Counted from the first letter of the stretch, positions 5,619 through 22,493 are shown. The stretch is DNA of 64,000 bases from a bacterium (GCA_030651285.1 JAUSCN010000013.1:28448-92447), one strand, 5' to 3'. The notes: generated by a model from the sequence alone, not told the origin. Numbers and translations are program-made.

Positions 5619-5641
5619 CGTGCAAGGCGGGATTTCTCCTG

Positions 5642-6001: not shown

Positions 6002-6104
6002 TACTCCTCCTAATAAGATGGTGGATGATTCCCTGGAGAGAACGAAAACTTCAGCCCCCATTTATACCAACTTTTGACTCAAAAGTCAAAAGACTCAATC
6101 TCTG

Positions 6105-7682: not shown

Positions 7683-7688
7683 GCTTGC

Positions 7689-8036: not shown

Positions 8037-8057
8037 AGCATGATAATACCAGAGATT

Positions 8058-9566
8058 TTACCGGGCCCGTGAGGTCGCAAGACGTTGCAGTATTTCTATG
8101 AATGCAGCAGTGTCCCGCGCAATAATGAGCGTCGTCTGATCCCAATAGCCATACACCATGACACCACTACCATCCGTATCGCGATATACACGTACGTCGT
8201 GATTAGCAACAACTTCATCGGTGAAATTTGTCGATTGAGCGGGCTTAACGACCGGAGCAATGGTAGGCCGAGCAACGGTTCTCGTCACCCTCGCTAGTGT
8301 CGTGACATCTGGAGTGCTTGACGCGATTCCTGAAACTTGAGCGGAGCGAAGCGGAAAAAGCTGACTAAGATGTTCCTGTATCGCTGGCTCCCATGAAAGC
8401 ATTCCTGAAAAAGTTTCGGCATAGGAATCGACTGAAAGTATGAAAAATGGACTTTGAGTCCCGCCAATGTTCACAATACCGGCCATGCTGCCGGCGACAT
8501 TTACATTGCGACGCAAGATATCAGGAGCGGACACATGCAGTGAAGAGAATACGCTTTCAGAATTGTCCGTCGATGATGCTGTATAGATGAGCCGGACGGA
8601 ACCGGGCATGAGCGGCCGCTCCATTGATTTGGTGATTGCTTCAAAGAGTTTCAGACCGACACCAGACACTTGTTCTCGATCATCGACGAATATCGGCGAA
8701 GAGACGGAGAACTGAAAGATAACAGGATGGAAATTGCTCAGATACCGCGTGTAGGCAAAATACATGCCAGTACCACTCAAGATAAGCAGCGCGATGCCTG
8801 CTGCGATATACAGACGACTACTGAGCGAGGTGGTTTTTTTCTCTGACGGAGTTATTTCTGGAGCTCCAGTTGCAGCATCTTGCTCTGCTGCAAGTACCGT
8901 AGCCGCTGAAGCATGTGTCTCTTTTACTTTATCTGAAAAATCTCCCAAATATGTCTTCACTGAAATAGGTACCGTCGACACCGGAGGAGCGGGAGGTACC
9001 ATGACTGACACTTCTTGTTTTGGTACTACGATCGGCATCTGTTCCAATGGAGATCCTGCAACGAGCCGTTCTGCTGGTACAGGTGTCGACATTGCTGCTG
9101 GAGCCGGCGCTGGAATCGTCCCACTCGACGCCATTGGCGCACCAGCACTCCGATTCACGACAATATTTTCCGGTATCACCGTGGCTTTTCGGAACAATGA
9201 AAGATCTGGAACACCTCCCTTCTTCAAGGTCTTCATGTCGCCCGAAAAAGTACGCACGTATTCTTCCGGATGGCCTTCAGGCTTTGCTGCGCCAACTTCT
9301 TTCGTACGCTCATCGAAAGAAGCTTTTACTGCCTCGGGAAGACCGCGAAACGTCGGGAATTCTTGTTTTCCATCCGCAGCGAGAGCATCGGTCTTACCCT
9401 GCTCCTGGACTACTGCAACTGACTGTTCTTTAGTGACAGTGAACGGAGTAAGGTCGGGCGTACCTCCCTTCTTGAGGATATCTATATCGCTCGAAAAGGT
9501 ACGAATGTATTTTTGTGATTCTTTTTTATCTGAAGATGCATTCGATGCATTTACATTCTCGTCCAT
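8058..9566 (-). CDS. hypothetical membrane protein with repeated Y[IV]RTFSxD..LKKGGxPDL motif
   Basis: 502-aa ORF. The motif occurs at aa 20-42 and 103-125, with a weaker copy near aa 204. A central TM helix (LYIAAGIALLILSGTGMYFAY) is followed by a C-terminal globular part. Confidence 0.6.
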   Translation of the reverse strand: MDENVNASNASSDKKESQKYIRTFSSDIDILKKGGTPDLTPFTVTKEQSVAVVQEQGKTDALAADGKQEFPTFRGLPEAVKASFDERTKEVGAAKPEGHPEEYVRTFSGDMKTLKKGGVPDLSLFRKATVIPENIVVNRSAGAPMASSGTIPAPAPAAMSTPVPAERLVAGSPLEQMPIVVPKQEVSVMVPPAPPVSTVPISVKTYLGDFSDKVKETHASAATVLAAEQDAATGAPEITPSEKKTTSLSSRLYIAAGIALLILSGTGMYFAYTRYLSNFHPVIFQFSVSSPIFVDDREQVSGVGLKLFEAITKSMERPLMPGSVRLIYTASSTDNSESVFSSLHVSAPDILRRNVNVAGSMAGIVNIGGTQSPFFILSVDSYAETFSGMLSWEPAIQEHLSQLFPLRSAQVSGIASSTPDVTTLARVTRTVARPTIAPVVKPAQSTNFTDEVVANHDVRVYRDTDGSGVMVYGYWDQTTLIIARDTAAFIEILQRLATSRAR

Positions 9567-9603
9567 TGCTCTCTATAGTAACGCACCAAACGGCACTTGC
9601 GGG

Positions 9604-10119
9604 TTATGCTCGTGACGTAATGGTGAATTTCTTAGGATCGTCGCACATATCGGTGAAAGCATGTGCTGCTTCTTTGAGCTTACCTGAAGAAGATTTCCCG
9701 AAAGAGATGACCTCTACCTGGCACCCTTCGTGCATATCGAGATACTGAATAAGCGGCACAAAATCGCCATCTCCCGTAACGAGCACGACCGTGTCGAGCT
9801 TTGGTGCAAGCTTCACCGCGTCGATCGCAAGACCGACATCCCAGTCGGCCTTCTTCGCACCGTCAGCAAACACCTGAAGGTCTTTCACTTTCGTTTCGAT
9901 ACCCATCTTCGTCAGCGCCTCGAAGAAATTCTTCTCTTCGCCTGCTTCCGTAGAGATCACATACGCAATCGCTCGCACAAGGACGCGCCCCCCGACCGCC
10001 TCTTCGAGGATCTTGCCGAAATTGACGCGCGCTTTATAGAGATGTTTCGCACTGTGATATAGGTTCTGCGTGTCGATAAAAACTCCTACTCGCTGTGCTG
10101 GATGCTTAATAACTGCCAT
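9604..10119 (-). CDS. NYN-domain (LabA-like) protein
   Basis: VGVFIDTQNLYHSAK near the N-terminus and LVTGDGDFVPL, arranged as in LabA/NYN nucleases. Confidence 0.75.
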   Translation of the reverse strand: MAVIKHPAQRVGVFIDTQNLYHSAKHLYKARVNFGKILEEAVGGRVLVRAIAYVISTEAGEEKNFFEALTKMGIETKVKDLQVFADGAKKADWDVGLAIDAVKLAPKLDTVVLVTGDGDFVPLIQYLDMHEGCQVEVISFGKSSSGKLKEAAHAFTDMCDDPKKFTITSRA

Positions 10120-10239
10120 AAAAATAGATACTTAATGCGCACAAAATAATAAAATGCAGCGGAATTACCGCTCCTTTCAATGATACCACCAGAAAGTATG
10201 CCCGAACGGGGCAAAGTGTACTAAACGAGAGAGATATCT

Positions 10240-10248
10240 CCCCCCCCC
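10240..10248. repeat. C9 (G9 on the minus strand) homopolymer in the rpsO-NYN spacer
   Basis: Nine consecutive C, 5 nt downstream of the rpsO stop on the coding strand. Confidence 0.9.
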
Positions 10249-10252
10249 TAGA

Positions 10253-10519
10253 CTACTTCTTCAAACCGAGCTTCTTCACGAGCGCGTTGTAGTTGCGCTT
10301 GTTGTTAGTCTCGAGATAGCGAAGATGACTGCGACGATCTGCGACCATCTGCAGGAGGCCACGGCGAGAATGAAAATCCTTCGGATTCTTCTTGAGGTGC
10401 TTTGTGAGCTCGTCAATCTGTCCTGAAAGAAGCGCGACCTGGACCTCTGGCGAGCCAGTGTCCGTATCGTGCCGAGCAGTGTTTTTCATGACTGCCGCCT
10501 TTTTCTTAGTGGTAAGCAT
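10253..10519 (-). CDS. rpsO: 30S ribosomal protein S15
   Basis: An internal Met gives an 88-aa protein (MLTTKKKAAV..GSPEVQVALLSGQIDELTKHLKKNPKDFHSRRGLLQMV..), which is collinear with S15. It ends in TAG. Confidence 0.93.
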   Translation of the reverse strand: MLTTKKKAAVMKNTARHDTDTGSPEVQVALLSGQIDELTKHLKKNPKDFHSRRGLLQMVADRRSHLRYLETNNKRNYNALVKKLGLKK

Positions 10520-10649
10520 GTAGACCCCTACCCTACCACGCCTTGCCATTATATGCAAGTCTCGCATAATCACGCCTTCTTATCTTCCCTACCCTTCAAG
10601 CCGAAGGTCGCACAATATAATACGAGGGACAGGATGCTACACTTTTCGT

Positions 10650-11549
10650 ATGGACACCGAGACAGCAAAACGCCAGTTTCTCGAGTACATTGAGATCGAA
10701 CGTGGGCGCGCTGTGAAGACTATTGAGAACTACGACCACTATCTCACGCGGTATTTCTCCCAAATGCGCATACAGAAAGTGGGCGATATAAGCGAACAGA
10801 GCATTCGGGAGTTTCGTCTCTGGCTGAACCGCCAATCAGGCACGAACAACGACCCAATGAAGCGCCGGACGCAGAATTACTACATGATCGCACTGCGCGC
10901 ATTCCTTAAATTCCTCCGGAAACGCGATATTCCCGCCATTTCTCCAGAAAAAATAGAGCTCGCGAAGCTTCCAGAGCGCCAAATTGATCTCATCACCCCT
11001 GCAGAGCTCCAACGCCTCTTGAAGACAGCTTCAGGTACTGAAGAGAAAGATCTTCGCAATACTGCCATGCTTGAACTCCTTTTCTCGACCGGACTGCGTG
11101 TTTCAGAGCTTTGCGCACTTGATACTGATCTCGATCTCACTCAGGACTCTTTTTCGATACGCGGGAAGGGCGACAAAGTTCGCGTTGTATTCGTCTCCCT
11201 TGCCGCAAAAAACACAGTATCTGCCTACTTAAAAACACGGAAAGACATGGTGGAGGCGCTTTTTGTAAACATTCCTCGCGGATCCTCAATGCCCACCCGC
11301 CTCACTCCCCGTTCCGTTGAGAGAATCATCAAAGAGTGCGCGATTAAAGCCGGCATTACGAAAAAGGTGACCCCGCACATCCTCCGCCATGCCTTTGCCA
11401 CAGACCTCCTTAACAATGGAGCTGATATCCGTTCAGTGCAGCAACTCCTCGGCCACGCTTCGATTAATACTACTCAGATCTATACCCACATCACCGACTC
11501 CCATCTACGCGAAATTCACAAAAAATTCCACGGCAAAGACCGCACATAA
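10650..11549 (+). CDS. xerC: tyrosine recombinase, XerC/XerD family
   Basis: SAM-like N-terminal domain. Catalytic-region motifs are ELLFSTGLRVSEL, HILRHAFATDLL and LLGHASINTTQIYTH. Confidence 0.88.
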   Translation: MDTETAKRQFLEYIEIERGRAVKTIENYDHYLTRYFSQMRIQKVGDISEQSIREFRLWLNRQSGTNNDPMKRRTQNYYMIALRAFLKFLRKRDIPAISPEKIELAKLPERQIDLITPAELQRLLKTASGTEEKDLRNTAMLELLFSTGLRVSELCALDTDLDLTQDSFSIRGKGDKVRVVFVSLAAKNTVSAYLKTRKDMVEALFVNIPRGSSMPTRLTPRSVERIIKECAIKAGITKKVTPHILRHAFATDLLNNGADIRSVQQLLGHASINTTQIYTHITDSHLREIHKKFHGKDRT

Positions 11550-11555
11550 ATCAGT

Positions 11556-11837
11556 TTATTCGCCAAATAGTTCCGAATGCGTACCGACATTAAGAATGGT
11601 AACGAGGTGCAATATATCGTCTTTCTCATATTGTACGAGGAGATTGAATCCGAGATGACACTCTCGAGATCCTGCAAGATCCCCTTGAAGTGCGTGGTCT
11701 TTGAAGTTAGCGGGTATTCTTTTGCAAAATATAAACAAGGACAGTAGTTCTCTGAACGTATCTTTTGGAAACGAGCCGCTCCGTCGAAGTCGCTTTAGTG
11801 CTTTTCGTGCACCTTGTGCATATGCGACGTCGTACAT
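11556..11837 (-). CDS. yafQ: type II toxin, YafQ/RelE-family mRNA interferase
   Basis: KDHALQGDLAGSRECHL..LLVQYEKDD..LVTILNVGTHSELFG is collinear with E. coli YafQ (recalled sequence). Confidence 0.8.
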   Translation of the reverse strand: MYDVAYAQGARKALKRLRRSGSFPKDTFRELLSLFIFCKRIPANFKDHALQGDLAGSRECHLGFNLLVQYEKDDILHLVTILNVGTHSELFGE

Positions 11838-11842
11838 ATGAA

Positions 11843-12118
11843 TTACGAAACGGCTTTTAGCGCCTCTTCGACAGTGCTGTATCGTTTGCCATACTTTTTA
11901 GCATATGCCATTTCGCGTAAAACGCGCGCTTCAAACTCAGGAGTGAATCCGTTCACGGTGCGCGGGGTAAATGGCATCGCTTTATCCTGTGCCACTCTGG
12001 TGAGGTACATATTGACACCCGTTGAGAGGTCGAGCCCCATACGCTTGAATACGCGCTGCGCCTCGCGTTTTATCGCTGCATCAGTTCGCACATTAAGAAT
12101 TGCTGTTTTTGTTGCCAT
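11843..12118 (-). CDS. dinJ: type II antitoxin, RelB/DinJ family
   Basis: N-terminal ribbon-helix-helix pattern ILNVRTDAAIKREAQRVFKRMGLDLSTGVNMYL. It lies 5 nt upstream of the toxin gene. Confidence 0.8.
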   Translation of the reverse strand: MATKTAILNVRTDAAIKREAQRVFKRMGLDLSTGVNMYLTRVAQDKAMPFTPRTVNGFTPEFEARVLREMAYAKKYGKRYSTVEEALKAVS

Positions 12119-12128
12119 ATCGACAGTA

Positions 12129-12141
12129 TATACAATGTATA
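12129..12141. promoter_or_regulatory. inverted repeat, candidate DinJ-YafQ operator
   Basis: tataca-a-tgtata, 11 nt upstream of the dinJ ATG. Confidence 0.3.
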
Positions 12142-12212
12142 CACAACTGCAAGAAAAGAGATATCACCAGTGGCCGCACTATTTCCGAATCCTTAAGCAG
12201 TAAGGGGGTTCT

Positions 12213-13169
12213 TTATTTGAGCATCCGTGTAACGAGCGCAATCATCTGCTCTTTCTTCTTTGGGTCGCTCTCGGCGATGAGGAGAGTGAGCGCGGTGAGC
12301 GCTGGCGGATTTATATTGCGACCATTCTTGCTTCGAGCCTTTCGTAGAAACTAAACAAACGAGAATGCTCCCGACCGTTTGTTACCGTCGGTGAAGGGAT
12401 GATTCTTCACCATGAAATACAGAAGGTGGGCAGCCTTCTCTTCAATGGTCTCGTACATAGCTTTCCCGCCAAACGATTGCATGACGTTTCCGACGATGCC
12501 TTCGATACTTCCTACAGCTCTCTCGTGCGCAAAAATCTCCGTCGCTTCGCCTCTTTTGAGAAGCTCGGAACGAAGACTTAGAATCGCTTCCGTCAGTTCC
12601 ACGCCAGTCAACTTGACCGCTTTTTTAGTGGACCCAACCGTTGTTAGAGTCTCTTTATCATACGCGTCAAGCGATATCCAAGTACTCGAGAATTCTTTAA
12701 TCAATTCCAATATCGCTTTTGGATCAAGAAGCACCTGTTCCGGCAAAAGCGACTGAATATCCGAAACGGATTTCATAAACGCATCGTAGTTCTTCGCAAT
12801 CTGCCTGCGATTTACGGTGTAGCCCTTGGTGATGTGCTCGCGCAGCGTCTTGGTCGCCCACTTTCTAAACTCTATGGCAATCTTTGAATTAGTTCGGTAG
12901 CCGATGCTTAAAATAATGTCGAGAGAATAAGCAGCGACCGGTTTGTCAGAATGTGCAATGTGCATTTTTTGCACATTGCTTTTTTCATCAATTTCTCCGT
13001 CTTTCAAGATATTCCTGATGTGTTTGGTTACAACCGACCGCTCCACACCGAACACATCGGCGATTTGCGCCTGTGTCGCCCAAAGCGTCTCGCGCGACAT
13101 ATCGCCACGGAACTCGATTGCGCCGTTCTTTGCCTGATATATGACCATGCCGGTATTCTTTTTTCCCAT
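12213..13169 (-). pseudogene. RhuM-like N-terminal domain fused to a Fic/Doc toxin domain, interrupted by an in-frame TAG at 12351-12353
   Basis: RhuM-type N-terminus (VIYQAKNGAIEFR..LWATQAQIADVFGV..LDIILSIGYRTNSKIAIEFRKWAT). The Fic/Doc motif HPFTDGNKRSGAFSFV is followed by TAG. The same frame then continues for 45 codons (FLRKARSKNGRNINPPALTALTLLIAESDPKKKEQMIALVTRMLK) to TAA at 12213. Confidence 0.75.
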
Positions 13170-13230
13170 ACGTTCATTCTACCTCACCCCAAAGAGGCGC
13201 GGCCTGCGGCCGCACCTCACACAAGCGAAA

Positions 13231-13249
13231 CCCCCGCGTGAGGCGGGGG
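13231..13249 (-). terminator. GC-rich hairpin between two minus-strand genes
   Basis: cccccgc-gtgag-gcggggg, flanked by the partly complementary acacaa/ttgtgt. Confidence 0.5.
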
Positions 13250-13278
13250 TTGTGTGTTACGAAAAAATGAATGTGCAG

Positions 13279-13875
13279 CTACATCCGGTGGATGTATGTC
13301 GCCTGAATCTCTTGAGCGATAGAAACACCGGAACGCAATCTTTTCACGCCGAGCTCTTGTAGGCTTTCAAGAGCATTCGCACGAGTGTCTATCAAGGTCA
13401 TCGGGGCACACATCGTGGGAGTCCGTTCGACAATTTCCAGAAATAGCCTTTTGGCGAGACCTTTCTGATTTTGCCGAACACATAACTCGGCGAATCGACA
13501 TAGTCCGAAGTATCCGAGCTTCCCCGGAGTGTCTGCCGTCTCGCTCGAGTAATATCTTCCGAGCTGTGGCGGATCATGAATAAGAAGAACCTTTTTCTTC
13601 CCATCCATGATTCCCAGGAAGAGTTCCATCGCTTCAGCCTCATGTCCTTGCTTGGCGAGACACAGAGCAAGCTTCTCCGAATAAGAACTCTTGCAGTTCA
13701 GCTTCCCGTCTTTCCCAACGACTGTCGCCAATTTGACGAGCAGATCTTCCAGATCACTCCGGCAGAACAATGGGTTCGAATCTTTGCCATACCCTATCTT
13801 CTTGAGCCAACGAGTAGTGAACAGGAACGGGTGACGAGACGAGACTTTTCGAATCGCCCGGGTGGTAGTTCCCAT
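13279..13875 (-). CDS. hypothetical protein, helical-repeat-like
   Basis: AAAGGAG lies 5 nt upstream of the internal ATG (MGTTTRAIRK..). No family was recognised. Two TPR-like helix pairs are present (EKLALCLAKQGHEAEAMELFLGI and FAELCVRQNQKGLAKRLFLEIVE). Confidence 0.5.
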   Translation of the reverse strand: MGTTTRAIRKVSSRHPFLFTTRWLKKIGYGKDSNPLFCRSDLEDLLVKLATVVGKDGKLNCKSSYSEKLALCLAKQGHEAEAMELFLGIMDGKKKVLLIHDPPQLGRYYSSETADTPGKLGYFGLCRFAELCVRQNQKGLAKRLFLEIVERTPTMCAPMTLIDTRANALESLQELGVKRLRSGVSIAQEIQATYIHRM

Positions 13876-14077
13876 GGGCACTCCTTTCCGATAAATATGA
13901 ATTTGTACTTATTTTGATTCTGGGTGGAATGTACCACAGATGTTTCTAGTGCAGCAGATTATTATTCTAAAACTTCACGGCTCTGTAGTCATCAAATTCG
14001 ACATCCATAAAGTCTGTCCTCATACCAGAATATCCTTCATTTAGAAAAAATGCTCCCGTTGCGAAGTCTTTAAGCAT

Positions 14078-15106
14078 TTACTCAATCTCTCTTATGCTGA
14101 ACAGTTTATATTCCGCGTCTTTAATCTCATCATTTCTTATAAACACGGAGGTGCCGGGCTCTAAAAGAATTTTATTTGCCGGGTAACCACATATTTTCTG
14201 GACATCTATCCCTGGATTGATCTGTGACCAATCGCCTCTGTCGGTATATTCCGCAACTTTTTCCCAAGCACCACCATTCTTTCCATCTGTTAAATCTCTA
14301 TGGAGCTCCAGCTTTACCGACCCCCCATCTGGGTTAGATTTTACGATAAACTTCACACCAATCCATACATTCGATGGCATGGATGCATCAACAGTATTCC
14401 ATTTCGTTTTGTGAGTCTCGCTCGGTTTATTCCTACTGTATGATCCTTCATGTATCAATTCCTTTTGGAATACGGCGCGCCCATCGTAAAGCAGTCTCCC
14501 GTAATACGTCGCACCGAAACAAGGATTTTCCTCTGTTGCATCCTGATGCTCGCTTCGTGCCCCAATGACAATACCCTGAGAACTTGTCGAGCCGTATTCC
14601 GACACCCGTTTCGCATAAATCGTGACCTCAACATTATTCCATTTTTTGTTTTTAGCAGGATCAAGAACATACATTCTCGGAGCATCGCCCTCTAGTCGAA
14701 CAGTACCGTCACCCTGAATGTACACAGCACCATCGCCACGAGAAACAAATTCACGATCAACAGGGTCACTGTCCCCACTATGCAAGGTCTTAGCTTTTTC
14801 TTTTGCCCATTTTGAGTACCAAACCCGACTATTTTCCTTTGTGGGATATAGCATTGCAATCCCATCGAAAGATAACGCGATCGTTGGTGTGATAACAGGC
14901 TTCGAAGGAAGTTTCTCTGGATCCTCTAACTCACCTGGCTCAATCGATAATACCGGCTCTGGTGCTACATTCTCGGAATTTGTGCCCAGTGACTCAGCTT
15001 TGAGATATAAAGCCCCCCAAACCACTACAATCAGAGCAATACCTACCCTTGCAAGGAATTTAATCCTTGAGCGCCTTAGCTCCCCCGACCTGTGAGGTTC
15101 ATCCAT
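14078..15106 (-). CDS. secreted/anchored beta-jelly-roll-like protein, possible polysaccharide lyase or binding protein
   Basis: N-terminal TM anchor (VGIALIVVVWGALYL). The beta-rich C-terminal part (WNNVEVTIYAKRV, GATYYGRLLYDGRAVFQKELIHEG, WIGVKFIV) looks like a ConA-like/PL fold. This is pattern recognition only. The gene overlaps the upstream gene by 31 nt. Confidence 0.5.
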   Translation of the reverse strand: MDEPHRSGELRRSRIKFLARVGIALIVVVWGALYLKAESLGTNSENVAPEPVLSIEPGELEDPEKLPSKPVITPTIALSFDGIAMLYPTKENSRVWYSKWAKEKAKTLHSGDSDPVDREFVSRGDGAVYIQGDGTVRLEGDAPRMYVLDPAKNKKWNNVEVTIYAKRVSEYGSTSSQGIVIGARSEHQDATEENPCFGATYYGRLLYDGRAVFQKELIHEGSYSRNKPSETHKTKWNTVDASMPSNVWIGVKFIVKSNPDGGSVKLELHRDLTDGKNGGAWEKVAEYTDRGDWSQINPGIDVQKICGYPANKILLEPGTSVFIRNDEIKDAEYKLFSIREIE

Positions 15107-18100
15107 CCGTCCAGTATAGTGGACCAGATTGTTCTTGGGAAACGAGACGACAAAATATCAAGTTTGAATTGAGCGGGAACAGCTTCGTGAAGAACGAATT
15201 CTGTCTGCGGAATGCCATTTCCCCTATCCAGTTCAGAAAGGGTCATAATTCTTATTCCCTGCCGCTTCATATCTTTAATGACAGTCTCGAAATCCCTCAA
15301 TGAAAATTCAGTATGTTGAGATGCTGGTCCCTTTGAAATTTTATGGAACATTAGGAATAGCGTCTGCTTATATTTTATTGCATCGCTAACAGCATTATGA
15401 GCATCTGTTGATTGTGCGGTATTACTGTACATACCAAACGTTCCTACTGCGAGCGAATCAGCAAACGGGAACGCTACAGGCACAGCAATGGTTGCTCGAG
15501 CGTATTTATAGTATTTGCCTATGATGGCTCGCGTAGAATTGTCGATGCTACCATCTGGATATACGTACCAGTTTGGAGCTGAATTGAGATCATTTTTGAT
15601 CAAGTAGTACAGCGCATCCATAACATCATTAGTAAAGCCCTCTATGTTATCTTCATGTACGTATTCAAGAACCGCATTCTTGTGGAGACTCGAGTGACTT
15701 ACCACATTCCACCCATACTCACTCTGGAGGGTTTTTAGATTATCCAATGTTAGATACCTCTTCGTATCAACGCTACCAGTCACCATTGCAACATTGCCTT
15801 TTACTCCGTACTTATTCATGATTTGAGCAGCATCCATCACCGATGCCCATCCATCATCAAAAACAATTACTGCGCGAGCCTCCTTTTGATCAGGAACTAA
15901 TCTAAATTCATGAATATTTACTTTTGCTACCTTACCCTGTTTCGCAGTTGCGACAATTTTAATTCCATCGACCTTAGACCAATCGAATGATGAATCCTTC
16001 TTTGTCCAATTACCCAATTCGACCTTCCTCAAGTCACCCTTAGCCACTCCGAAGTTGATCCACGTATTATTTCGATTGATGTCTTCTTCCGGATCAGGAA
16101 TAATCGACTTTACATTAAACTTGGCATAAGTTGCCCAATTATCATTGGAAAGATACAGATCAACGCCCTGCAGGCTGAAGATCCTATCGACCTTGAATTG
16201 GAAGTAGATGTTGTGATTCGACAAATCTAGATTGACTTTCTTCTCAATACCGAAATGTGAACCATCGGAAGCCGTGGTTATTCCAAGACTGTTTTCCTTC
16301 TGATTAACAGATAAGGATCCTCCAACTACTCCAGAAATGAATTCGCTTACCTCCTCCCATCCTATAGATGTATTTAGAGAATCAATCTGTTGTATTGATG
16401 AGTTACTCTGGTTTGCATCATAATTTTTCTTCACATCGATACTTCTCTCTACGTTCTCAGTTCTGTCTATTTTAACTGTATACTCACCTTTCTTTGTCGT
16501 AACTATTACAAGATTTTTATCCTGTCTGAAGGTTACATTAGCGGCATTTTGACCGATATTAATTGCAGTCACATAAGAAACACTGTTTCCTTTTTTTGCA
16601 TACGAAATCGAATGACATGGAATCGCTACTTTGTATTGAACTGAGCACTGTCCATCAAGTGGTTTCTGTTTATTTATTGCCGTACTCAACTTAAGACCAT
16701 CAGTGGCGAACTGTTTGATAGTTAGGGATTGCTTTGGATCAGAACCTTCCGCCTTGAGAGTTAAGCCGTCAGTGGTTACTCGAGCTCCTGGGAAGAGGTG
16801 GAACATCTGTTCATACGTATGCGGTGCAGAAGACTTGAGATTGTCCAACACAAGTACGGTGGAATCCTCGATTAATACTATTGCCCTCTCGTGAGAGACG
16901 CCATCATAAAGAATGTTTTGGCCAGACTGGTACACATAGCCATCCCCTTCTTCGAAAAATCCAGCGAAGACCTTTTTTGGCTGTGTACTTGATTCGAGAC
17001 CCGCCGACTGATCCTTACCGTCTACAACGACAGTATTGTGAGATCGTGTTCCATGGAAATATGAGCGGTATGACCCCTCTTCATACGTATAAAGACCCGC
17101 GTCCGGCATCAAAGCTATTCCCCCGCCAAAAAGATTGAAGCTGAGTGCGTCGAGATCGCTATGATTGGTTCTGTAATTCCCAACATCAAATATAACCTGT
17201 GTTTGATTTACATACCCATTCTTATTGTTCCAAGCAGACCTCATTATGGTTTGCCCGCCTGAGGGGTATCGAATATTCAGCTTTGCAGGCTTCTCACCCT
17301 CCTCGCCCTGCGTCAATACATACAACAGATCCGGACGTTTCTCTGCAATTTCCTTATAGAGACCAAATAGATTTATCTGCCTCGTAATAGAGGCACCGAC
17401 CGTCGACACCGACAGGTCAGGTTGCAACATATAGACGACGTAAGACACCATTTTATCTAGCTTTTCTTCCGAAAAACCATCTATCGTGAGGTTGTTCTGT
17501 TTTAGATATTTATTGATCTCCAAAAACTTTTCCAAAACATAGAGATGGTAGTACGGCGAATTTTCGACCAACACCCCATCCTCATCAATAATATTTGCCT
17601 GACTCTCAGCAATTCGCTTTGACGCCAATTTGTACCACGAATCTGCCCCCTTCATGTCGGGGAAATTAGCTGCCAAAAGGAAGAGTGCTGCAGCCTGATC
17701 GAGGCCATGGTTATAATCCTTCTCAAAATGAGTAGGGTCCGCCAGGAAGTTTCCATGAACCTTGAGCGACGCCAATATTTTCTTGTCTAACTCGGGTGAC
17801 AATTCATTTTTCTCACGCAACTTCGCCTGCACGCTTATGAGCGTCATGGCCCTAAATGCAACACCATGGTAGTCCCACGAATATTGGCCTTTTTGACCCT
17901 TATCTAGAAAAGACTCGGTGATCTGAATCAGATTATCCTTATACTCTGGCTTGCCAGTCTTCTGCCACGCAAAAAGAAGATTCCGTACAGGCTCTAGATT
18001 GTAATAATTAAAACGCCAATAAATATCAGAAAATGGATCTTCTTTCCAAGTTTGTTTATTTATCACTACGGGCTCGAATCGACTGATTTCGTATCTATTC

Positions 18101-18321
18101 TCGAGAATCCCATCTGCCACTCGAATATCTCCGGTTGCGATATTCGAGTAAATAATTTCCTTCCCATACACGATAGGATAGTCGTGATTCTGAATCATCT
18201 TGAGTATCTTGCTGCCCATCGGATACAGCAAAACAACGACTACCCCTATCAGGGTAACGATAAGTCCCAGATGAGCATGTTTCTTTTTTAGAAGAGCCAT
18301 AAATTTTAGCGTGTCCCCCAC
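15076..18321 (-). CDS. membrane-anchored heparinase II/III-like lyase fused to a CE4 (NodB) polysaccharide deacetylase
   Basis: 1081 aa. Heparinase II/III block NHSDLDALSFNLFGGGIALMPDAGLYTY..GTRSHNTVVVDGKDQ. C-terminal CE4 motifs VIVFDDGW and VSHSSLH. Overlaps the GT2 gene by 16 nt. Confidence 0.8.
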   Translation of the reverse strand: MGDTLKFMALLKKKHAHLGLIVTLIGVVVVLLYPMGSKILKMIQNHDYPIVYGKEIIYSNIATGDIRVADGILENRYEISRFEPVVINKQTWKEDPFSDIYWRFNYYNLEPVRNLLFAWQKTGKPEYKDNLIQITESFLDKGQKGQYSWDYHGVAFRAMTLISVQAKLREKNELSPELDKKILASLKVHGNFLADPTHFEKDYNHGLDQAAALFLLAANFPDMKGADSWYKLASKRIAESQANIIDEDGVLVENSPYYHLYVLEKFLEINKYLKQNNLTIDGFSEEKLDKMVSYVVYMLQPDLSVSTVGASITRQINLFGLYKEIAEKRPDLLYVLTQGEEGEKPAKLNIRYPSGGQTIMRSAWNNKNGYVNQTQVIFDVGNYRTNHSDLDALSFNLFGGGIALMPDAGLYTYEEGSYRSYFHGTRSHNTVVVDGKDQSAGLESSTQPKKVFAGFFEEGDGYVYQSGQNILYDGVSHERAIVLIEDSTVLVLDNLKSSAPHTYEQMFHLFPGARVTTDGLTLKAEGSDPKQSLTIKQFATDGLKLSTAINKQKPLDGQCSVQYKVAIPCHSISYAKKGNSVSYVTAINIGQNAANVTFRQDKNLVIVTTKKGEYTVKIDRTENVERSIDVKKNYDANQSNSSIQQIDSLNTSIGWEEVSEFISGVVGGSLSVNQKENSLGITTASDGSHFGIEKKVNLDLSNHNIYFQFKVDRIFSLQGVDLYLSNDNWATYAKFNVKSIIPDPEEDINRNNTWINFGVAKGDLRKVELGNWTKKDSSFDWSKVDGIKIVATAKQGKVAKVNIHEFRLVPDQKEARAVIVFDDGWASVMDAAQIMNKYGVKGNVAMVTGSVDTKRYLTLDNLKTLQSEYGWNVVSHSSLHKNAVLEYVHEDNIEGFTNDVMDALYYLIKNDLNSAPNWYVYPDGSIDNSTRAIIGKYYKYARATIAVPVAFPFADSLAVGTFGMYSNTAQSTDAHNAVSDAIKYKQTLFLMFHKISKGPASQHTEFSLRDFETVIKDMKRQGIRIMTLSELDRGNGIPQTEFVLHEAVPAQFKLDILSSRFPRTIWSTILDGWMNLTGRGS

Positions 18322-19659
18322 TTCGTATCATTGATACGAATGATGGCATACGGCATCTGCCAAATCATAACGACCGTGTAAAAAACTGAGAACAGAGGCA
18401 TAAGATACCAGTATCTTTCTTTCTGCATCAAAAATAGGTACCCGCCAAATAAAAATCCCATGGTGGTTACCCCAAAGATAAAGGCTATGAAAAAAGTCGG
18501 ATTCATAAGCATAATGCTCTTGAATATGACAAGGCCGACAACAATAGGACCTAAGGTGGGAAGAATAAGATTCGTATAAAATGCGGTGGCCGCCAATGGG
18601 TGCTTTCTCCAAATAAACTTGGCAGCCACAGACCCTTCTCGAATCCACGACTTCTTCCAGCGAAGCTGCTGTTTTAGGAATTTATTGTATTTTTCTGGAA
18701 CGATAGTTACAGCCCTTGCCGCCTGACAATATTCGACATCCCGAGTGCGAAGCACGAAATTTGTCAGACTCCTATCATCGCCAAACGTACTTCGTGTCCC
18801 CATGAACATCTGATTACGCCACTCGGCAATCACTGGCAAAACGGCATCCCTTCTGTACGCAGAAAAACAACCTGGGCAACAGGTCACTACCCCGAAAAAA
18901 CTTTCTGAAACCTTGAAGATATCGTACGATACTGCATATCGTATCGACTGCATTTTTGTCAAAAGATTTACTTGATGATTTGCAACTCCAGTATTTCCCG
19001 ACACAGCTCCGACACGCGGGTTTGCAAAATGGTGCACAAGGTGCCGAAGAGCGTCTCTCTTCAAGAAACTATCAGAATCTACGAAAACGATTATCTCATT
19101 TCTTGCAACAGAAACCCCTTCAGACATCGCTTCCCTTTTCCCTTTATTTACGCCCAGAGTAATCGCCTTAACCAGCTTCTCGCCAAAAAACTCACTCGCA
19201 CGCTGCATCTCAGCATAAGTCTTGTCGGTAGATCCATCATCAACAGCAATGCATTCCATTTCCGCTGGATAATCGGATTTCATGCATGTTTCTATCGTCT
19301 CAAAAATAGACTTCTCTTCATTTTTTCCAGCGATGATGAAGCTTACTTTAGGGTAATTGAAATTCGACAGGACATTTCCTGTATGGATATCCTTATCGTC
19401 ATAGAGAAAAGCGAGAGGGAGTCGCGAGAGTAGAAATACCCCCCCCCAGCAAGCTATAGATGTACCAAAAAATTAGTACCCCATCGCCAGTTTCCGTATT
19501 CAAGTAATATGCAACTTTATACAGAGAAATAAGGGACAGTATCGAAAAGAAAAGAAAGAATGCAGGAACAGATGAAATACCGCCAACAAAGCCGACATTT
19601 TTATCCACCGCAAATGGAGTAATTATGTGAGTAGGTTTATACGATGTATTTTGCTGCAT
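18306..19659 (-). pseudogene. processive GT2 polysaccharide synthase (hyaluronan-synthase/NodC-like), split by a frameshift at a G9 tract; possibly phase-variable rather than dead
   Basis: The N-terminal 86-aa two-TM ORF (19399..19659) stops 17 codons after the tract. The +1 frame is open from just 5' of the tract and reads ..VFLLSRLPLAFLYDDKD..YPKVSFIIAGKNEE..AVDDGSTDKT, then FVDSDS, GDDRSLTN, QQLRWKKSW and C-terminal TM helices. Removing one G gives a single 450-aa ORF. Confidence 0.8.
19439..19447. repeat. C9/G9 homopolymer inside the GT2 synthase gene (frameshift site)
   Basis: Nine consecutive C on the plus strand. On the coding strand the sequence reads ctG GGG GGG GGt. Confidence 0.9.
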
Positions 19660-19674
19660 GAGGGTAAATAAAAA

Positions 19675-19698
19675 GGCATGGAGACGTCTCCATGCCTG
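19675..19698. promoter_or_regulatory. 24-nt perfect palindrome in a divergent promoter region, candidate operator
   Basis: aggcatggagac/gtctccatgcct, between the GT2 gene start (19659, minus) and the xth start (19796, plus). Confidence 0.35.
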
Positions 19699-19795
19699 AC
19701 ATAATATGTATCATACAATCATACATATGTCAACTTTTTCATAAAAAATAGAAAATGCAGTGAAAAATGAGTTTTCTCTCTGATATAGTTCTCAT

Positions 19796-20563
19796 ATGAA
19801 AATCGTCTCCTGGAATGTAAACGGCCTACGCTCGCTCGCAAAGGATGGGTACTGGGAATCTTTTTTGAAAGGTACGAAACCCGACATATTTTGCCTACAA
19901 GAGACCAAAGCGAACCCGGAGCAAGTTTCAGAAGCAATGCTCTCCCCTCTTGGATTCCGATCGTTCTTTTCGTCGTGCCAAGTGAAAAAAGGCTATAGCG
20001 GCGTCGCTATTTACTCAAAAATCGAGCCATTAAAAGTAATTTATGGCATGGGAATAAAGGAGTTTGATCAGGAAGGGCGGCTTGTCGGGGCTGAATATGA
20101 GGACTTCTGGCTCATAAACGCGTACTTCCCTAACGGCGGGCAGGGCCCAGAACGACTCGACTACAAAATGCGTTTTTATGATGCTTTCCTCGCATTTGTA
20201 GAGAAACTGCGTAAGCAGAAACCAGTCATATTCTGTGGCGATGTGAATACCGCTCATGAGGAAATGGACCTCGCACGACCAAAAGAAAACTCAGATAACA
20301 CAGGATTCCTTCCCGAAGAGCGTGCATGGATAGACGAAGTGGTGAATGCTGGATATGTAGACTCCTTCCGCCACTTCTATCCACAAACGAAAGACGCCTA
20401 TACCTATTGGGATATGAAGACTCGTGCGCGCGACCGAAATGTAGGTTGGCGCATTGATTACTTCTTTGTCGCACAAGAATTTTTGAAACAATTAAAGAAG
20501 GCGGAAATTCATCCTGACATCTACGGTTCCGACCACTGCCCTCTTTCAATTACACTCTCTTAA
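19796..20563 (+). CDS. xth: exodeoxyribonuclease III
   Basis: MKIVSWNVNGLRS, LQETK, GDVNTAHEEMDL and SDHCP motifs. Confidence 0.92.
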   Translation: MKIVSWNVNGLRSLAKDGYWESFLKGTKPDIFCLQETKANPEQVSEAMLSPLGFRSFFSSCQVKKGYSGVAIYSKIEPLKVIYGMGIKEFDQEGRLVGAEYEDFWLINAYFPNGGQGPERLDYKMRFYDAFLAFVEKLRKQKPVIFCGDVNTAHEEMDLARPKENSDNTGFLPEERAWIDEVVNAGYVDSFRHFYPQTKDAYTYWDMKTRARDRNVGWRIDYFFVAQEFLKQLKKAEIHPDIYGSDHCPLSITLS

Positions 20564-20570
20564 AAGACAT

Positions 20571-20579
20571 TTATCCACA
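20571..20579 (+). promoter_or_regulatory. perfect DnaA-box consensus TTATCCACA
   Basis: Exact 9-mer, 8 nt after the xth stop. Confidence 0.4.
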
Positions 20580-20624
20580 GCGTGTCCTTTACATTGTCCT
20601 TTACTAGAATATCATCAGCAAAGG

Positions 20625-20860
20625 AGGAGAAGTTCTTTTCTAGATCTGTCAGCAAATATCAGTGTCGGCATCACAGTGCTTAGTCACAGGCCCCTGCCCA
20701 CGTCCGCGGCGATCCGCGTTTGAGTTATGGCGCATGGTGTTCCACGTGAAAGCGCAAGTGGTGCAAAAGAAAATAAAAACCACCCTCATTCTCGGGTTGG
20801 AGACCCCATCAAGTACGCCTCAGCTCCTTTTTGTCTCTAACCACCTTGGGTGGTTTTTTT
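20625..20860 (+). ncRNA. candidate small structured RNA of unknown class
   Basis: The spacer between convergent genes is 448 nt. It contains local hairpins (cgcgg-cgat-ccgcg). A possible closing helix pairs AAAGGAG (~20629) with CTCCTTT (~20824). It ends in a canonical rho-independent terminator. No RNase P, tmRNA or SRP motifs were recognised. Confidence 0.2.
20839..20860 (+). terminator. rho-independent terminator
   Basis: aaccacc-ttg-ggtggtt followed by a T-run. Confidence 0.7.
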
Positions 20861-21011
20861 GTTTCTAGAACTAGTCTCAAAAATAATAGCTGCGTTTTAA
20901 CCGCAGACTTTTCATACTCGACAGCACAGTGAGACATTGTACCCGCCAGTACGATGAAGCATCGCATTGAATGTTTCACGTATAACTTACTCTCGGCAGT
21001 GTCATTTTAAG

Positions 21012-22493
21012 TCAACAAACGTGGTGTTTTTCCATTATATGGCGTATTTCCTCATCTTCTGCAGACTCACGACGTTGTTTCCCTGCTTCCCCAAGCTTTC
21101 TAAGGTCCTCATCAGTCATTCCAAGCAGTTCCTCCGTGCGCTTATCGAGGTATTCCTCCGTATTCTTACCGGAATCATCAAGTATTTCCTCAAGAAGCGC
21201 GTTAAGCGTCCAACCTATTCTAGGGCCAGGTTTCACCTGAAACTTAGCCATCAGGCGTGTCCCGTCGGTCTTGAGCATGGTTACTGATATAGGGTCTCTG
21301 AGCGCCTGCTCGACCATAGCCTTATACTTCCTAAATCTAAACGGCTGTTCTTTTGGTCTCCCAGTTCCGATACGGTCGCATATACGGAGATTGAGCAAGT
21401 CCCATACATTCTCCTCTCCGACGTTCTTTATCATCCTTCGTACCGCAGATAGGGTAATCTGCTCAGGATCAGAGAAGAACATGTGCCAGCGAACCAATTT
21501 TACGACCTTTTCTATCGTTTCACGTGAAAAACGCATGTCTTCCAGAGCTTTCTTTGTTACACGTGAACCAACTACCTCATGGCCATGAAAGGTCCAGTCC
21601 TTCTTTTCATCGGACCATCGACGGGTCTCTGGCTTAGAGATGTCGTGATATAAGCCCGCGAGACGCAGATCGAAGCCCCATTCCTTATCTGCAGCATGCT
21701 GCATTGTGCGGAGATTATGCTCAAAGACGTCGTACGAGTGGGCCTGATTCTGTTCCACGCCAATACCGCGCATAAGATCTGGAACAATGAACTCGAGAAT
21801 TCCCAGTCTTTGCGACAAAAGAATCGCGCTCATTGGCTGTCTTGATTTCAGAATTCTTACGAACTCTTCACGAACTCTTTCACGTGAAACGTGGCTTAAA
21901 TGCTTGCTATTTTCGCTTATAGCCGCTGCAGTACCGCTATCTATACCAAACTCAAGCTCAGCAATGAGTCGAACGGCGCGGAGCATACGCAATGCATCTT
22001 CGTTAAAACGCTCTGAAGCATTGCCGACGGCGCGGATAAGTTTGTCCTTTATGTCTTTTTGACCCTCATAGGGATCTACGAACTGTCCTTTAGACTCATC
22101 CATCGCAATCGCATTGATAGTGAAGTCCCGACGAGCCAAGTCTTCGAGTAGGGAAGTGCCAAACTCAACCTTGTCTGGTCGACGCCTATCGGAATAGTCG
22201 GATTCGGTTCGGTAGGGAGTTATCTCGACAATACTTAGCCGAGGATCCTCGGAACCCGTCTTTACACCAACAGTACCGTAATCATTTTCATAGAAAGAGT
22301 CAGGAAATACGGCCTGAATCTGCTCTGGAGTCGCATTAGTGGTGAAATCCCAGTCTTTCGGCTCTCGACCGATAATCAGGTCACGGACACAGCCTCCGAC
22401 CAGATACGAGTCGAATCCGGCACCTCGAAGAGACCCGCCAACCTTTGTTATTTCGACTGGAATACGGTAATCCATGGCAGAATCGTAGCACAA
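21012..22493 (-). CDS. cca: CCA-adding tRNA nucleotidyltransferase with C-terminal HD domain
   Basis: GGCVRD..RDFTINA PolyA_pol head, followed by an HD-domain region (LYHDISKP). The start may be the Met at 22475. Confidence 0.88.
   Translation of the reverse strand: MCYDSAMDYRIPVEITKVGGSLRGAGFDSYLVGGCVRDLIIGREPKDWDFTTNATPEQIQAVFPDSFYENDYGTVGVKTGSEDPRLSIVEITPYRTESDYSDRRRPDKVEFGTSLLEDLARRDFTINAIAMDESKGQFVDPYEGQKDIKDKLIRAVGNASERFNEDALRMLRAVRLIAELEFGIDSGTAAAISENSKHLSHVSRERVREEFVRILKSRQPMSAILLSQRLGILEFIVPDLMRGIGVEQNQAHSYDVFEHNLRTMQHAADKEWGFDLRLAGLYHDISKPETRRWSDEKKDWTFHGHEVVGSRVTKKALEDMRFSRETIEKVVKLVRWHMFFSDPEQITLSAVRRMIKNVGEENVWDLLNLRICDRIGTGRPKEQPFRFRKYKAMVEQALRDPISVTMLKTDGTRLMAKFQVKPGPRIGWTLNALLEEILDDSGKNTEEYLDKRTEELLGMTDEDLRKLGEAGKQRRESAEDEEIRHIMEKHHVC

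What the first reader, a model, noticed from the sequence alone, without database searches (positions are those of the whole stretch)
19399..19470. G9 homopolymer splits the polysaccharide synthase: candidate slipped-strand phase-variation switch
On the coding strand the tract reads ctG GGG GGG GGt. With 9 G, the 86-aa two-TM N-terminal ORF stops 17 codons later. The +1 frame is open from just upstream of the tract and runs straight into the GT-A domain (..VFLLSRLPLAFLYDDKD..PKVSFIIAGKNEE..).

Loss of one G, or gain of two, restores one 450-aa synthase with the N-terminal TM pair expected for HAS/NodC-type enzymes. Poly-G tracts in surface-polysaccharide genes are a classic contingency-locus mechanism. 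Finding one in this kind of genome would be notable.
Basis: partly seen in the sequence, partly recalled or inferred. Interest (0 to 1): 0.75.

Follow-up and report, generated by a model that had tools for sequence, protein, structure and literature searches.

The report
Poly-G on/off switch in polysaccharide synthase
A run of nine G's breaks the reading frame of a hyaluronan-synthase-like gene in an ultra-small groundwater bacterium. Comparison with relatives shows the run is a conserved, slippage-prone tract found both in frame (8 G) and out of frame (9 G), which fits a reversible genetic on/off switch for a surface sugar polymer, here caught in the off state.

Summary
C9 on the + strand at 19439-19447 (G9 on the coding strand) splits a 450-aa GT2 processive synthase into an 86-aa ORF and a downstream frame. 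Removing one G, or adding two, restores the gene.

The tract is not an assembler error. A separate Logan assembly is identical over 5.4 kb, G9 included.

The gene is not an old pseudogene. All family-invariant residues are kept. dN/dS is 0.05 against a relative (L048) that carries the same G9, although synonymous sites are near saturation.

A third lineage (L049) has G8 in frame at the same codons. Other relatives encode the same Leu-Gly-Gly-Val peptide without a tract. Two further lineages carry in-frame G8 tracts at other Gly-Gly-Val sites of the same gene.

A second G9 in the window is G7 in a 99.3%-identical sibling strain. It is the only indel in 11.7 kb.

The synthase lies on a 5.7-kb island that the sibling strain replaces with another glycan cassette.

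Best reading (about 0.6): a slipped-strand contingency locus in the OFF phase, in a Patescibacteria (Paceibacteria/Kaiserbacteria-like) genome. Switching within one population is untested. Recoding at the G run, or a very recent inactivation, remain possible. It is a new member of a known kind.

The parts
19439..19447 (-). G9 homopolymer (C9 on the + strand). It is the putative slipped-strand switch and lies in codons 71-73 (Gly-Gly-Val/Gly) of the synthase, inside TM helix 2.
   Evidence: Orthologous tracts are G9 in L048 and G8 in L049.
19399..19659 (-). N-terminal ORF as read with G9: 86 aa, made of TM1, half of TM2 and a 13-residue out-of-frame tail. This is the OFF-phase product.
   Evidence: The start MQQNT.. 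is conserved in L047 and L048.
18306..19472 (-). Downstream frame of the synthase: the rest of TM2, the GT-A domain and the C-terminal membrane domain ending WGTR. It is open throughout and joins the N-terminal ORF when the tract is G8 or G11.
15076..18321 (-). Operon partner of 1081 aa: N-terminal TM anchor, heparinase II/III-like lyase domains and a CE4 polysaccharide deacetylase. Its start overlaps the synthase stop by 16 nt.
   Evidence: The same pairing is seen in L048, L201 and L053.
14078..15106 (-). Third gene of the module: 342 aa, one N-terminal TM anchor and no Pfam family. It is conserved at the same length in L048.
14044..19778 (.). Strain-variable glycan island of 5,735 bp holding the three genes above. 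A sibling strain replaces it with a 7,384-bp cassette: GtrA, a 679-aa double GT2, CE4, PMT_2 and a 296-aa gene.
19674..19697 (-). Perfect 10-bp hairpin followed by a U-run, 14 nt upstream of the synthase ATG. It is a terminator-like element in the 5' leader and its function is unknown.
   Evidence: z = -5.3. No Rfam match.
10240..10248 (-). Second G9 tract. It is intergenic, 4 nt after the rpsO stop and about 120 nt upstream of a NYN-domain gene. It serves as an internal control for tract mutability.
   Evidence: It is G7 in the sibling strain and is the only indel in 11,659 aligned bp.

Best explanation
The G run is a hypermutable simple-sequence tract inside the coding sequence of a class-I hyaluronan-synthase-like, membrane-embedded GT2 polysaccharide synthase.

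Proposed mechanism. Slipped-strand mispairing during replication changes the number of G's.
- With G8 (or G11), the full 450-aa enzyme is made: two N-terminal TM helices, the GT-A domain and the C-terminal channel-forming helices.
- With G9, translation stops 16 codons after the tract begins and no functional synthase is made. The downstream lyase/deacetylase genes may also be under-expressed through polarity.

The sequenced population is in the OFF phase.

Consequence. The switch gives a Patescibacteria cell line heritable but reversible on/off control of an exopolysaccharide, probably GlcNAc-containing and partly de-N-acetylated. The polymer is encoded on a strain-variable glycan island.

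What is shown and what is inferred:
- Shown: the tract, its frame consequences, ON and OFF alleles among orthologs, purifying selection, conservation of the tract, and tract-length change between near-identical strains at a second G run.
- Inferred: reversibility within a population, its rate, its adaptive role (phage or host-attachment bet-hedging) and the polymer's identity.
For: 1. The frame logic is verified.

2. The gene is otherwise intact. It keeps the DSD, GDDR, QQxRW and WGTR motifs and every family-invariant column. Pfam hits are GT2 and Chitin_synth_2. Hyaluronan synthases are the best PDB sequence hits, at E = 3.5e-29. They are also the best fold matches for the AF2 model of the 86%-identical ortholog (pLDDT 88, TM 0.68-0.74).

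3. Orthologous site:
- window: CTG GGG GGG GGT, G9, OFF
- L048 (82% aa identity, different run): TTG GGG GGG GGT, G9, OFF
- L049 (74%): TTG GGG GGG GTA, G8, ON
- L047, L050, L001, L199, L201: the same or a near-identical Gly-Gly peptide with no tract.

4. Selection. Window versus L048, both OFF, gives dS 1.87, dN 0.090 and dN/dS 0.048 after the tract, and 0.15 before it. The OFF lineages show no excess dN against outgroups.

5. The tract is conserved against synonymous saturation. Only 33 of 127 four-fold sites are identical in the three tract lineages. Of 20 conserved Gly columns, only the two tract codons are GGG in all three. The tree shows the tract lineages are paraphyletic.

6. Recurrence. 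In-frame G8 tracts occur at two other Gly-Gly-Val sites of the gene, in L047/L135 and in L146/L147. In 218 kb of loci carrying CPR-type synthases, all six G/C runs of 8 or more lie inside the synthase gene, which is 21% of the sequence, and all are G on the coding strand.

7. Mutability in this organism. The other G9 (10240-10248) is G7 in a 99.3%-identical strain. It is the only gap among 79 differences in 11,659 bp.

8. It is not an assembler artefact. Logan contigs L053 and L204 match the window 100% over 5,404 and 9,091 bp with no gaps, including both G9 tracts.

9. Context. The gene sits on an accessory glycan island that is swapped between strains. This is the kind of locus where contingency switches are known (PMC4965091, PMC8437040, PMC4117637).
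Against: - No ON (G8) allele of this species was found. The window and the Logan contig are both G9 and probably derive from the same run, SRR13727527; a truncated NCBI CDS (P0124, 354 aa) is consistent with a third OFF copy, but its contig could not be retrieved to check the tract.
- Two of the three tract-bearing lineages are OFF with the same length (G9). This would also fit a fixed, recoded frameshift.
- No read-level heterogeneity could be examined.
- Mismatch-repair status of this genome is unknown. MutS/MutL absence has been reported for Saccharibacteria only (PMC8406219).
- The island is accessory, so loss of function might simply be tolerated.
Confidence: 0.6

Rival explanations
1. 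Recoding rather than DNA switching. G9 is a fixed allele, and full-length synthase is produced at a low, set level. This happens either because RNA polymerase slips on the nine-G template (deleting one G or adding two) or because ribosomes shift +1 on GGG-GGG-GG. The tract would then act as an expression attenuator, like the ancient homopolymer frameshifts kept in reduced endosymbiont genomes.
For: - The same G9 out-of-frame state occurs in two lineages separated by dS of about 1.9, with dN/dS of 0.05 on both sides of the tract.
- A run of 9 matches the length at which transcriptional realignment becomes possible (homopolymers of 8 or more; PMC3711429).
- A P-site tRNA-Gly can re-pair perfectly after a +1 slip within the run. 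This follows directly from the sequence.
- The genome is reduced, and no ON allele of this species was found.
Against: - L049 has G8 in frame, and most orthologs have no tract. The out-of-frame state is therefore not a conserved feature of the gene.
- There is no significant or conserved RNA structure downstream of the tract (z = -0.3 to -0.7).
- The codon following in the zero frame is GGT, which is not a rare or hungry codon.
- Documented bacterial slippage sites are A/T runs (PMC3711429; my recollection of Wagner et al. 1990 is that G runs did not slip in E. coli).
Confidence: 0.12
2. Recent non-adaptive knockout. The G8 tract is simply a mutational weak spot. In this strain, and independently in L048, a +1 slip has inactivated an accessory gene that is on its way to being lost. 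There is no selected switching function.
For: - The gene lies on an accessory island that a 99.3-99.6%-identical sibling strain lacks altogether.
- None of 80 related species has the synthase next to xth.
- Both assemblies of the species that could be examined are OFF.
- NCBI annotates a truncated 354-aa CDS.
Against: - There is no second lesion in 1.35 kb. dN/dS is 0.05-0.06 and the OFF lineages show no acceleration.
- Two independent OFF lineages would both have to be very young knockouts.
- The tract itself is kept at saturated synonymous sites.
- New G8 tracts have arisen at two other sites of the same gene. That is hard to explain if such tracts were only a liability.
Confidence: 0.18
3. 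Sequencing or assembly artefact. The true sequence is G8 and the extra G was introduced by homopolymer miscalling or polishing.
For: Homopolymers are the classic site of indel errors. Only one sample is known to carry this species' island.
Against: - A different assembler (Logan) gives G9 from the raw run and agrees with the window at every one of 14.5 kb compared, with no gaps.
- A different lineage from a different run also has G9, while a run of the same project gives G8.
- The only indel against the sibling strain in 16.4 kb is at the other G tract, so the assembly is not indel-prone.
Confidence: 0.05

Closest known systems
Campylobacter jejuni polyG/polyC contingency loci in capsule and LOS biosynthesis genes (PMC4965091, PMC8437040, PMC5808241)
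   Same: An intragenic G run of 8-9 lies in a surface-glycan biosynthesis gene. A change of one G toggles between a full-length and a truncated product. ON and OFF lengths are seen among related genomes. The locus sits in a strain-variable glycan cluster. In C. jejuni, the link to phage receptor variation is known.
   Different: - The host is a free-living or episymbiotic groundwater Patescibacterium, not an animal pathogen.
- Only two G/C runs of 9 occur in 64 kb, against 29 tracts per 1.6-Mb genome in C. jejuni.
- The switched gene is the processive synthase itself, not a modifying transferase.
- Switching rates and within-population variants have not been measured here.
Neisseria meningitidis siaD poly-C capsule switch (my recollection of Hammerschmidt et al. 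1996; not retrieved here)
   Same: A homopolymer inside the polymerising enzyme of a surface polysaccharide turns the whole polymer on or off by slipped-strand mispairing.
   Different: The enzyme family (polysialyltransferase), the phylum and the ecology all differ. The Neisseria switch is experimentally proven.
Staphylococcus aureus icaC tetranucleotide-repeat phase variation of PNAG (PMC4117637)
   Same: On/off variation of a GlcNAc-based exopolysaccharide made by a GT2 synthase plus a CE4 deacetylase operon, through repeat slippage in an operon gene.
   Different: The repeat there is a 4-nt unit in the accessory gene icaC. Here it is a mononucleotide run in the synthase itself.
Ancient homopolymer frameshifts rescued by transcriptional slippage in Blochmannia/Buchnera (Tamas 2008 and Wernegreen 2010, recalled; discussed in PMC3017870) and Citrobacter tssM (PMC4256274)
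   Same: A frameshift at a homopolymer is retained in diverged lineages of a reduced genome while the gene stays under purifying selection.
   Different: Those tracts are poly(A/T). Here the tract is poly(G), an in-frame G8 ortholog exists, and no RNA data are available.
Class I hyaluronan synthases (Chlorella virus HAS 7SP6, Xenopus HAS1 8SMM), and NodC/chitin synthases
   Same: The architecture matches: two N-terminal TM helices, a GT-A domain with DxD, GDD and QxxRW motifs, and a C-terminal TM bundle ending WGTR. Sequence E-value is 3.5e-29 and fold TM-score is about 0.7 over nearly the full length.
   Different: Identity is only about 22%. Scores against the NodC and PgaC NCBIfam models are far below cut-off. 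The product is unknown. The partner is a heparinase-like lyase fused to a CE4 deacetylase, which resembles PgaB/PelA logic rather than known HAS operons.

Membership tests
SSR-mediated phase-variable (contingency) locus | A simple-sequence repeat of slippage-prone length (polyG/C of 7 or more in the C. jejuni criteria, PMC4965091) lies within the ORF or promoter. | tested here: met
   G9 at 19439-19447 lies inside codons 71-73.
SSR-mediated phase-variable (contingency) locus | A change of repeat number toggles between a full-length (ON) and a truncated (OFF) product. | tested here: met
   G8 gives 450 aa, G9 gives 86 aa and G11 gives 451 aa.
SSR-mediated phase-variable (contingency) locus | Tract-length polymorphism, with both ON and OFF states, among strains or related genomes. 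| tested here: met
   G9 in the window and in L048, G8 in L049. Within the species itself, the two assemblies examined (window and Logan contig) are both G9.
SSR-mediated phase-variable (contingency) locus | The gene is otherwise intact and under purifying selection. | tested here: met
   dN/dS is 0.05-0.15 between the two OFF lineages, and all invariant residues are kept.
SSR-mediated phase-variable (contingency) locus | The tract is demonstrably hypermutable in this organism. | tested here: inconclusive
   This is shown for the second G run, which is G9 versus G7 and the only indel in 11.7 kb between strains. It is not shown for the synthase tract itself.
SSR-mediated phase-variable (contingency) locus | High-frequency, reversible switching within a clonal population, with a phenotypic change. 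| not testable with these tools
   This needs raw reads, amplicons or cultures.
Programmed recoding (transcriptional realignment or +1 ribosomal frameshift) | The out-of-frame arrangement and shift site are conserved across orthologs. | tested here: not met
   L049 is in frame with G8. L047, L050, L001, L199 and L201 have no tract.
Programmed recoding (transcriptional realignment or +1 ribosomal frameshift) | Stimulatory elements are present (a downstream RNA structure or a slow codon). | tested here: not met
   Downstream folds score z = -0.3 to -0.7 and are not conserved. The next codon, GGT, is not rare.
Class I HAS / NodC / chitin-synthase-type processive GT2 synthases | A GT-A domain with DxD, a (G/E)DD catalytic motif, QxxRW and a C-terminal WGTR. 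| tested here: met
   D194-S-D196, G293-D-D-R296, Q330-Q-L-R-W334 and W447-G-T-R450 are invariant. Pfam PF00535 and PF03142 score above cut-off.
Class I HAS / NodC / chitin-synthase-type processive GT2 synthases | A membrane-integrated fold with N-terminal TM helices and a C-terminal channel-forming bundle. | tested here: met
   The AF2 model of the 86%-identical P0001 has pLDDT 88. Its best folds are XlHAS1 and CvHAS, with TM 0.68-0.74 over 420-480 columns. Hydropathy agrees.
NodC (TIGR04242) or PgaC/IcaA (TIGR03937) equivalogs | A score above the NCBIfam curated cut-off. | tested here: not met
   NodC scores 170 bits against a cut-off of 550. PgaC scores 131 against 422.
Hyaluronan synthase in the strict sense | The product is alternating GlcA-GlcNAc. 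| not testable with these tools
   Only JGI's automatic name 'hyaluronan synthase' and about 22% identity to solved HAS structures are available.

The most novel reading that the evidence does not exclude
G9 is not an 'off' allele but the working allele. Two lineages separated by saturated synonymous divergence keep the same +1 frameshift under strong purifying selection. This could be because full-length synthase is made by RNA-polymerase slippage or +1 ribosomal slippage on a poly-G run. That would be a recoding mechanism so far documented in bacteria essentially only for A/T runs, and never in Patescibacteria. It would set a low, noisy expression level for a surface polymer.
Probability: 0.12. 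Interest if true: 0.75.

Novelty: new member of a known kind. Interest (0 to 1): 0.55.

Why it matters
Patescibacteria (CPR) are thought to live attached to host cells. They are exposed to phages, yet almost nothing is known about how they vary their surface.

I found no report of simple-sequence phase variation in this radiation. The nearest is a hypervariable 9-mer repeat gene in a Gracilibacterium (PMC6851277).

A poly-G switch in the polymerising enzyme of an exopolysaccharide has three notable properties here:
- it is kept across deeply diverged lineages;
- it has been re-invented at three Gly-Gly-Val sites of the same gene;
- it sits on a strain-swapped glycan island.

This would mean that contingency loci, a strategy described mainly in host-adapted pathogens, also operate in ultra-small groundwater bacteria.

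It also gives a directly testable handle. Counting G8/G9 alleles in existing read sets and time series would link polymer on/off states to host or phage dynamics.

There is a practical point too. Automatic annotation currently records the gene as a truncated CDS, so the capacity is hidden in MAG surveys.

Tried and rejected
- **Pattern scan.** A degenerate pattern spanning the tract with G7-G11 found 0 hits in the JGI metagenome contigs.
- **Protein-guided scan.** The same collection gave 64 relatives, but no new tract-bearing lineage at site 1.
- **ON allele of this species.**
  - The full-length search listed nothing closer than 86%.
  - A 141-aa junction query returned only the window's own 86-aa ORF. 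It missed known relatives, so it was insensitive.
- **NCBI contig.** Look-up of the contig that carries the 354-aa annotated fragment (P0124) found nothing on record.
- **Split-gene reading.** I rejected the idea that the two ORFs work as separate subunits.
  - The downstream frame has no start codon before residue 126 in the window.
  - The upstream ATG used in L048's gene call is a stop-interrupted frame in the window.
- **Riboswitch or known RNA upstream.** No Rfam family reaches threshold.
- **Frameshift-stimulating RNA structure downstream.** None was found.
- **Promoter.** The sigma-70 consensus scan found no minus-strand promoter between xth and the synthase.
- **Long-read homopolymer noise.** Rejected, because the window is gap-free against short-read Logan contigs.
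- **Mismatch-repair genes.** None occur among the larger window ORFs scanned. The window is only 64 kb, so this says nothing about the whole genome.

Full report
**Observation**

The + strand has C9 at 19439-19447, so the minus, coding strand reads CTG GGG GGG GGT.
- An ORF starting at ATG 19659 encodes 86 aa and stops at 19399.
- The adjacent frame is open from 19472 to the stop at 18306-18308.
- Removing one G fuses the two into a 450-aa protein. Adding two gives 451 aa.
- In the downstream frame the first possible start codon is at 19283 (residue 126). No useful C-terminal protein can therefore be initiated independently.
- Hydropathy, and an AlphaFold model of the closest ortholog, place codons 71-73 in the middle of TM helix 2. 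The OFF peptide is TM1 plus a corrupted TM2.
- A first-order Markov model expects 0.078 G/C runs of 9 or more in this window. There are two, and none of length 7 or 8.

**What the gene is**

- The repaired protein matches Pfam Glycos_transf_2 and Chitin_synth_2.
- It scores far below the NCBIfam cut-offs for NodC and PgaC.
- Its best solved-structure relatives are hyaluronan synthases, Xenopus HAS1 at E = 3.5e-29 and Chlorella virus HAS.
- The AF2 model of P0001 (86% identical) has pLDDT 88 and pTM 0.87. It superposes on these HAS structures over nearly its full length, with TM 0.68-0.74.
- The DSD, GDDR, QQxRW and terminal WGTR motifs, and every column invariant in 17 and in 52 homologs, are intact in the window sequence.
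- Homologs are overwhelmingly from Patescibacteria MAGs, and JGI auto-names them 'hyaluronan synthase'.
- The next gene (15076-18321) overlaps the synthase stop. It is a 1081-aa membrane-anchored fusion of heparinase II/III-like lyase domains with a CE4 polysaccharide deacetylase.
- A 342-aa anchored protein without known domains follows.
- The synthase plus lyase/deacetylase pair recurs in relatives.
- By analogy with PgaC/PgaB and Pel, I infer a GlcNAc-containing, partly de-N-acetylated exopolymer. The product was not testable.

**Whose genome it is**

The window carries dnaA-dnaN, type IV pilus ATPases, ComEC and similar genes. The adjacent xth gene is at most 93% identical to MAGs labelled Kaiserbacteria, Paceibacterota or Parcubacteria.

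**Is G9 real?**

- A Logan assembly of run SRR13727527 is 100% identical to window 15796-21199, including G9. A second Logan contig is identical over 9,091 bp, including the other G9.
- Against a sibling strain, 16.4 kb of alignment contains a single gap.
- The assembly is therefore not indel-noisy, and G9 is what the reads say, at least as the majority allele.

**Is it a pseudogene?**

- I corrected the frame and compared the gene with orthologs.
- Against L048, which also has G9, synonymous sites are near saturation (dS 1.87) while dN is 0.090. That gives dN/dS of 0.048 after the tract and 0.15 before it.
- Against the closest relative L047, dN/dS is 0.064.
- Neither OFF lineage shows excess nonsynonymous change relative to outgroups.
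- There is no second lesion in the gene.

**The orthologous site**

| Lineage | Sequence at the site | State |
|---|---|---|
| window | CTG GGG GGG GGT | G9, OFF |
| L048 (SRR22387923; 82% aa identity overall) | TTG GGG GGG GGT | G9, OFF |
| L049 (SRR22388054; 74%) | TTG GGG GGG GTA | G8, ON, 440-aa protein |
| L050 | CTA GGG GGA ATA | no tract |
| L047 / L135 | TTC GGC GGT CTT | no tract |
| L001 / L136 | CTT GGA GGA CTT | no tract |
| L199 | CTT GGA GGC GTA | no tract |
| L201 | CTT GGA GGT ATT | no tract |

- The L048 gene call (P0003) begins in the shifted frame just upstream of the tract, which is how the frameshift first showed up.
- A neighbour-joining tree gives ((window, L047) 100, L048) 99, with L049 outside. 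The tract lineages are therefore paraphyletic.
- Among the three tract lineages, only 33 of 127 conserved four-fold sites share the same third base. Of 20 conserved Gly columns, only the two tract codons are GGG in all three.
- GGG is the least used Gly codon, at 18%.
- The tract is thus maintained against synonymous turnover while its length varies between 8 and 9.

**Recurrence**

- L047/L135, which lost the site-1 tract, carry an in-frame G8 107 codons downstream (TCG GGG GGG GTG, with Glu replaced by Gly).
- L146/L147, at 52% identity, carry an in-frame G8 at a third site (AAG GGG GGG GTA).
- In 34 loci (218.5 kb) with CPR-type synthases, all six G/C runs of 8 or more lie inside the synthase gene, which is 21% of the sequence. 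All are G on the coding strand.
- In 1.18 Mb around xth in 80 related species there are only about six internal runs of 8 or more.

**Mutability in this organism**

- The second G9 (10240-10248) lies 4 nt after the rpsO stop. It is G9 in the window and in the SRR13727527 contig.
- It is G7 in GCA_030646265.1 (JAUSNI010000005.1) and in SRR13727526.
- Across window 2385-14043 the two strains differ by 79 substitutions and exactly one gap, which is this tract.

**Context**

- The sibling strain is 99.3-99.6% identical on both sides.
- It replaces window 14044-19778 (5,735 bp: synthase, lyase/deacetylase and the 342-aa gene) with a 7,384-bp cassette. That cassette encodes GtrA, a 679-aa double GT2, a CE4 deacetylase, a PMT_2 transferase and a 296-aa protein.
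- None of 80 related species has the synthase next to xth.
- The switch therefore sits in a strain-variable glycan island, as capsule and LOS switches do in C. jejuni (PMC4965091, PMC8437040).

**Mechanism and rivals**

- The data fit a slipped-strand contingency locus caught in the OFF phase (confidence about 0.6).
- Recoding on the G run is the most interesting alternative, at about 0.12.
  - For it: it would explain two G9 lineages under purifying selection.
  - Against it: the in-frame G8 ortholog, the absence of any downstream RNA structure, a non-rare following codon, and the A/T bias of known slippage sites (PMC3711429).
- A very recent, non-adaptive knockout of an accessory gene gets about 0.18. 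It is disfavoured by tract conservation and recurrence.
- An artefact gets about 0.05 and is disfavoured by the independent assemblies.

**Novelty**

- Homopolymer phase variation of surface-glycan genes is textbook in pathogens (PMC11868660).
- I found no report of it in CPR/Patescibacteria.
- MutS and MutL are reported absent from Saccharibacteria (PMC8406219). This is a lead for elevated slippage in parts of the radiation, but it was not tested for this genome.
- I file this as a new member of a known kind.
- The decisive test is read-level tract counting in the existing runs.

Noticed in passing
window 10240-10248 (minus strand): There is a second G9 tract, 4 nt after the rpsO stop and about 120 nt upstream of a NYN-domain gene. 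It is G7 in a 99.3%-identical sibling strain and is the only indel in 11,659 bp. Two other groundwater contigs (L205, L206) have a completely different 257-nt spacer without a tract.
   Followed up: yes
window 14044-19778: The whole synthase module is a 5.7-kb island. In GCA_030646265.1 and SRR13727526 it is replaced by a 7.4-kb cassette (GtrA, a 679-aa double GT2, a CE4 deacetylase, PMT_2 and a 296-aa protein) between identical flanks. This looks like capsule-locus-style cassette exchange in a Patescibacterium.
   Followed up: partly
window 19674-19697 (minus strand): A perfect 10-bp GC-rich hairpin plus U-run ends 14 nt before the synthase start codon (fold z = -5.3). It is terminator-like but sits in the 5' leader. 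There is no Rfam match, it is only partly conserved in L047, and it is absent in L048.
   Followed up: partly
L047:1136-1143 / L135:1294-1301; L146:4381-4388 / L147:1355-1362: In-frame G8 tracts occur at two other Gly-Gly-Val sites of orthologous synthase genes. One lineage lost the site-1 tract and has a new tract 107 codons downstream.
   Followed up: yes
window 1-2384: The alignment with the sibling strain stops at 2385, inside the 3' end of the UvrD-like gene. The leftmost 2.4 kb differs between strains. It includes a 504-aa spermidine-synthase-like/DUF7282 protein.
   Followed up: no
L127:16983-16992; L072:7418-7427; L100:16647-16655: Three long G/C runs occur in related Paceibacteria MAGs. 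A G10 sits directly upstream of an extended -10-like TGCTATAAT. C10 and C9 runs lie between a reverse-transcriptase-like ORF and a four-helix-bundle ORF.
   Followed up: no
JGI contig carrying P0126 and P0128 (cluster of P0005): Another ortholog is split into 339-aa and 102-aa pieces at the A-rich KFLK/QQLRWKK region. This is a different frameshift site, and it could be an assembly error or another slippage spot.
   Followed up: no
window 10650-13169: A XerC-like integrase, a RelB/YafQ toxin-antitoxin pair (seen in the L202 gene calls) and a RhuM/Fic protein lie between the second tract and the glycan island. This is a mobile-element-like neighbourhood.
   Followed up: no
window 51825-54431: dnaA and dnaN are present, so the replication origin is probably near 51-52 kb. 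The synthase is about 32 kb away on the minus strand, which would make it co-directional with a leftward fork.
   Followed up: no
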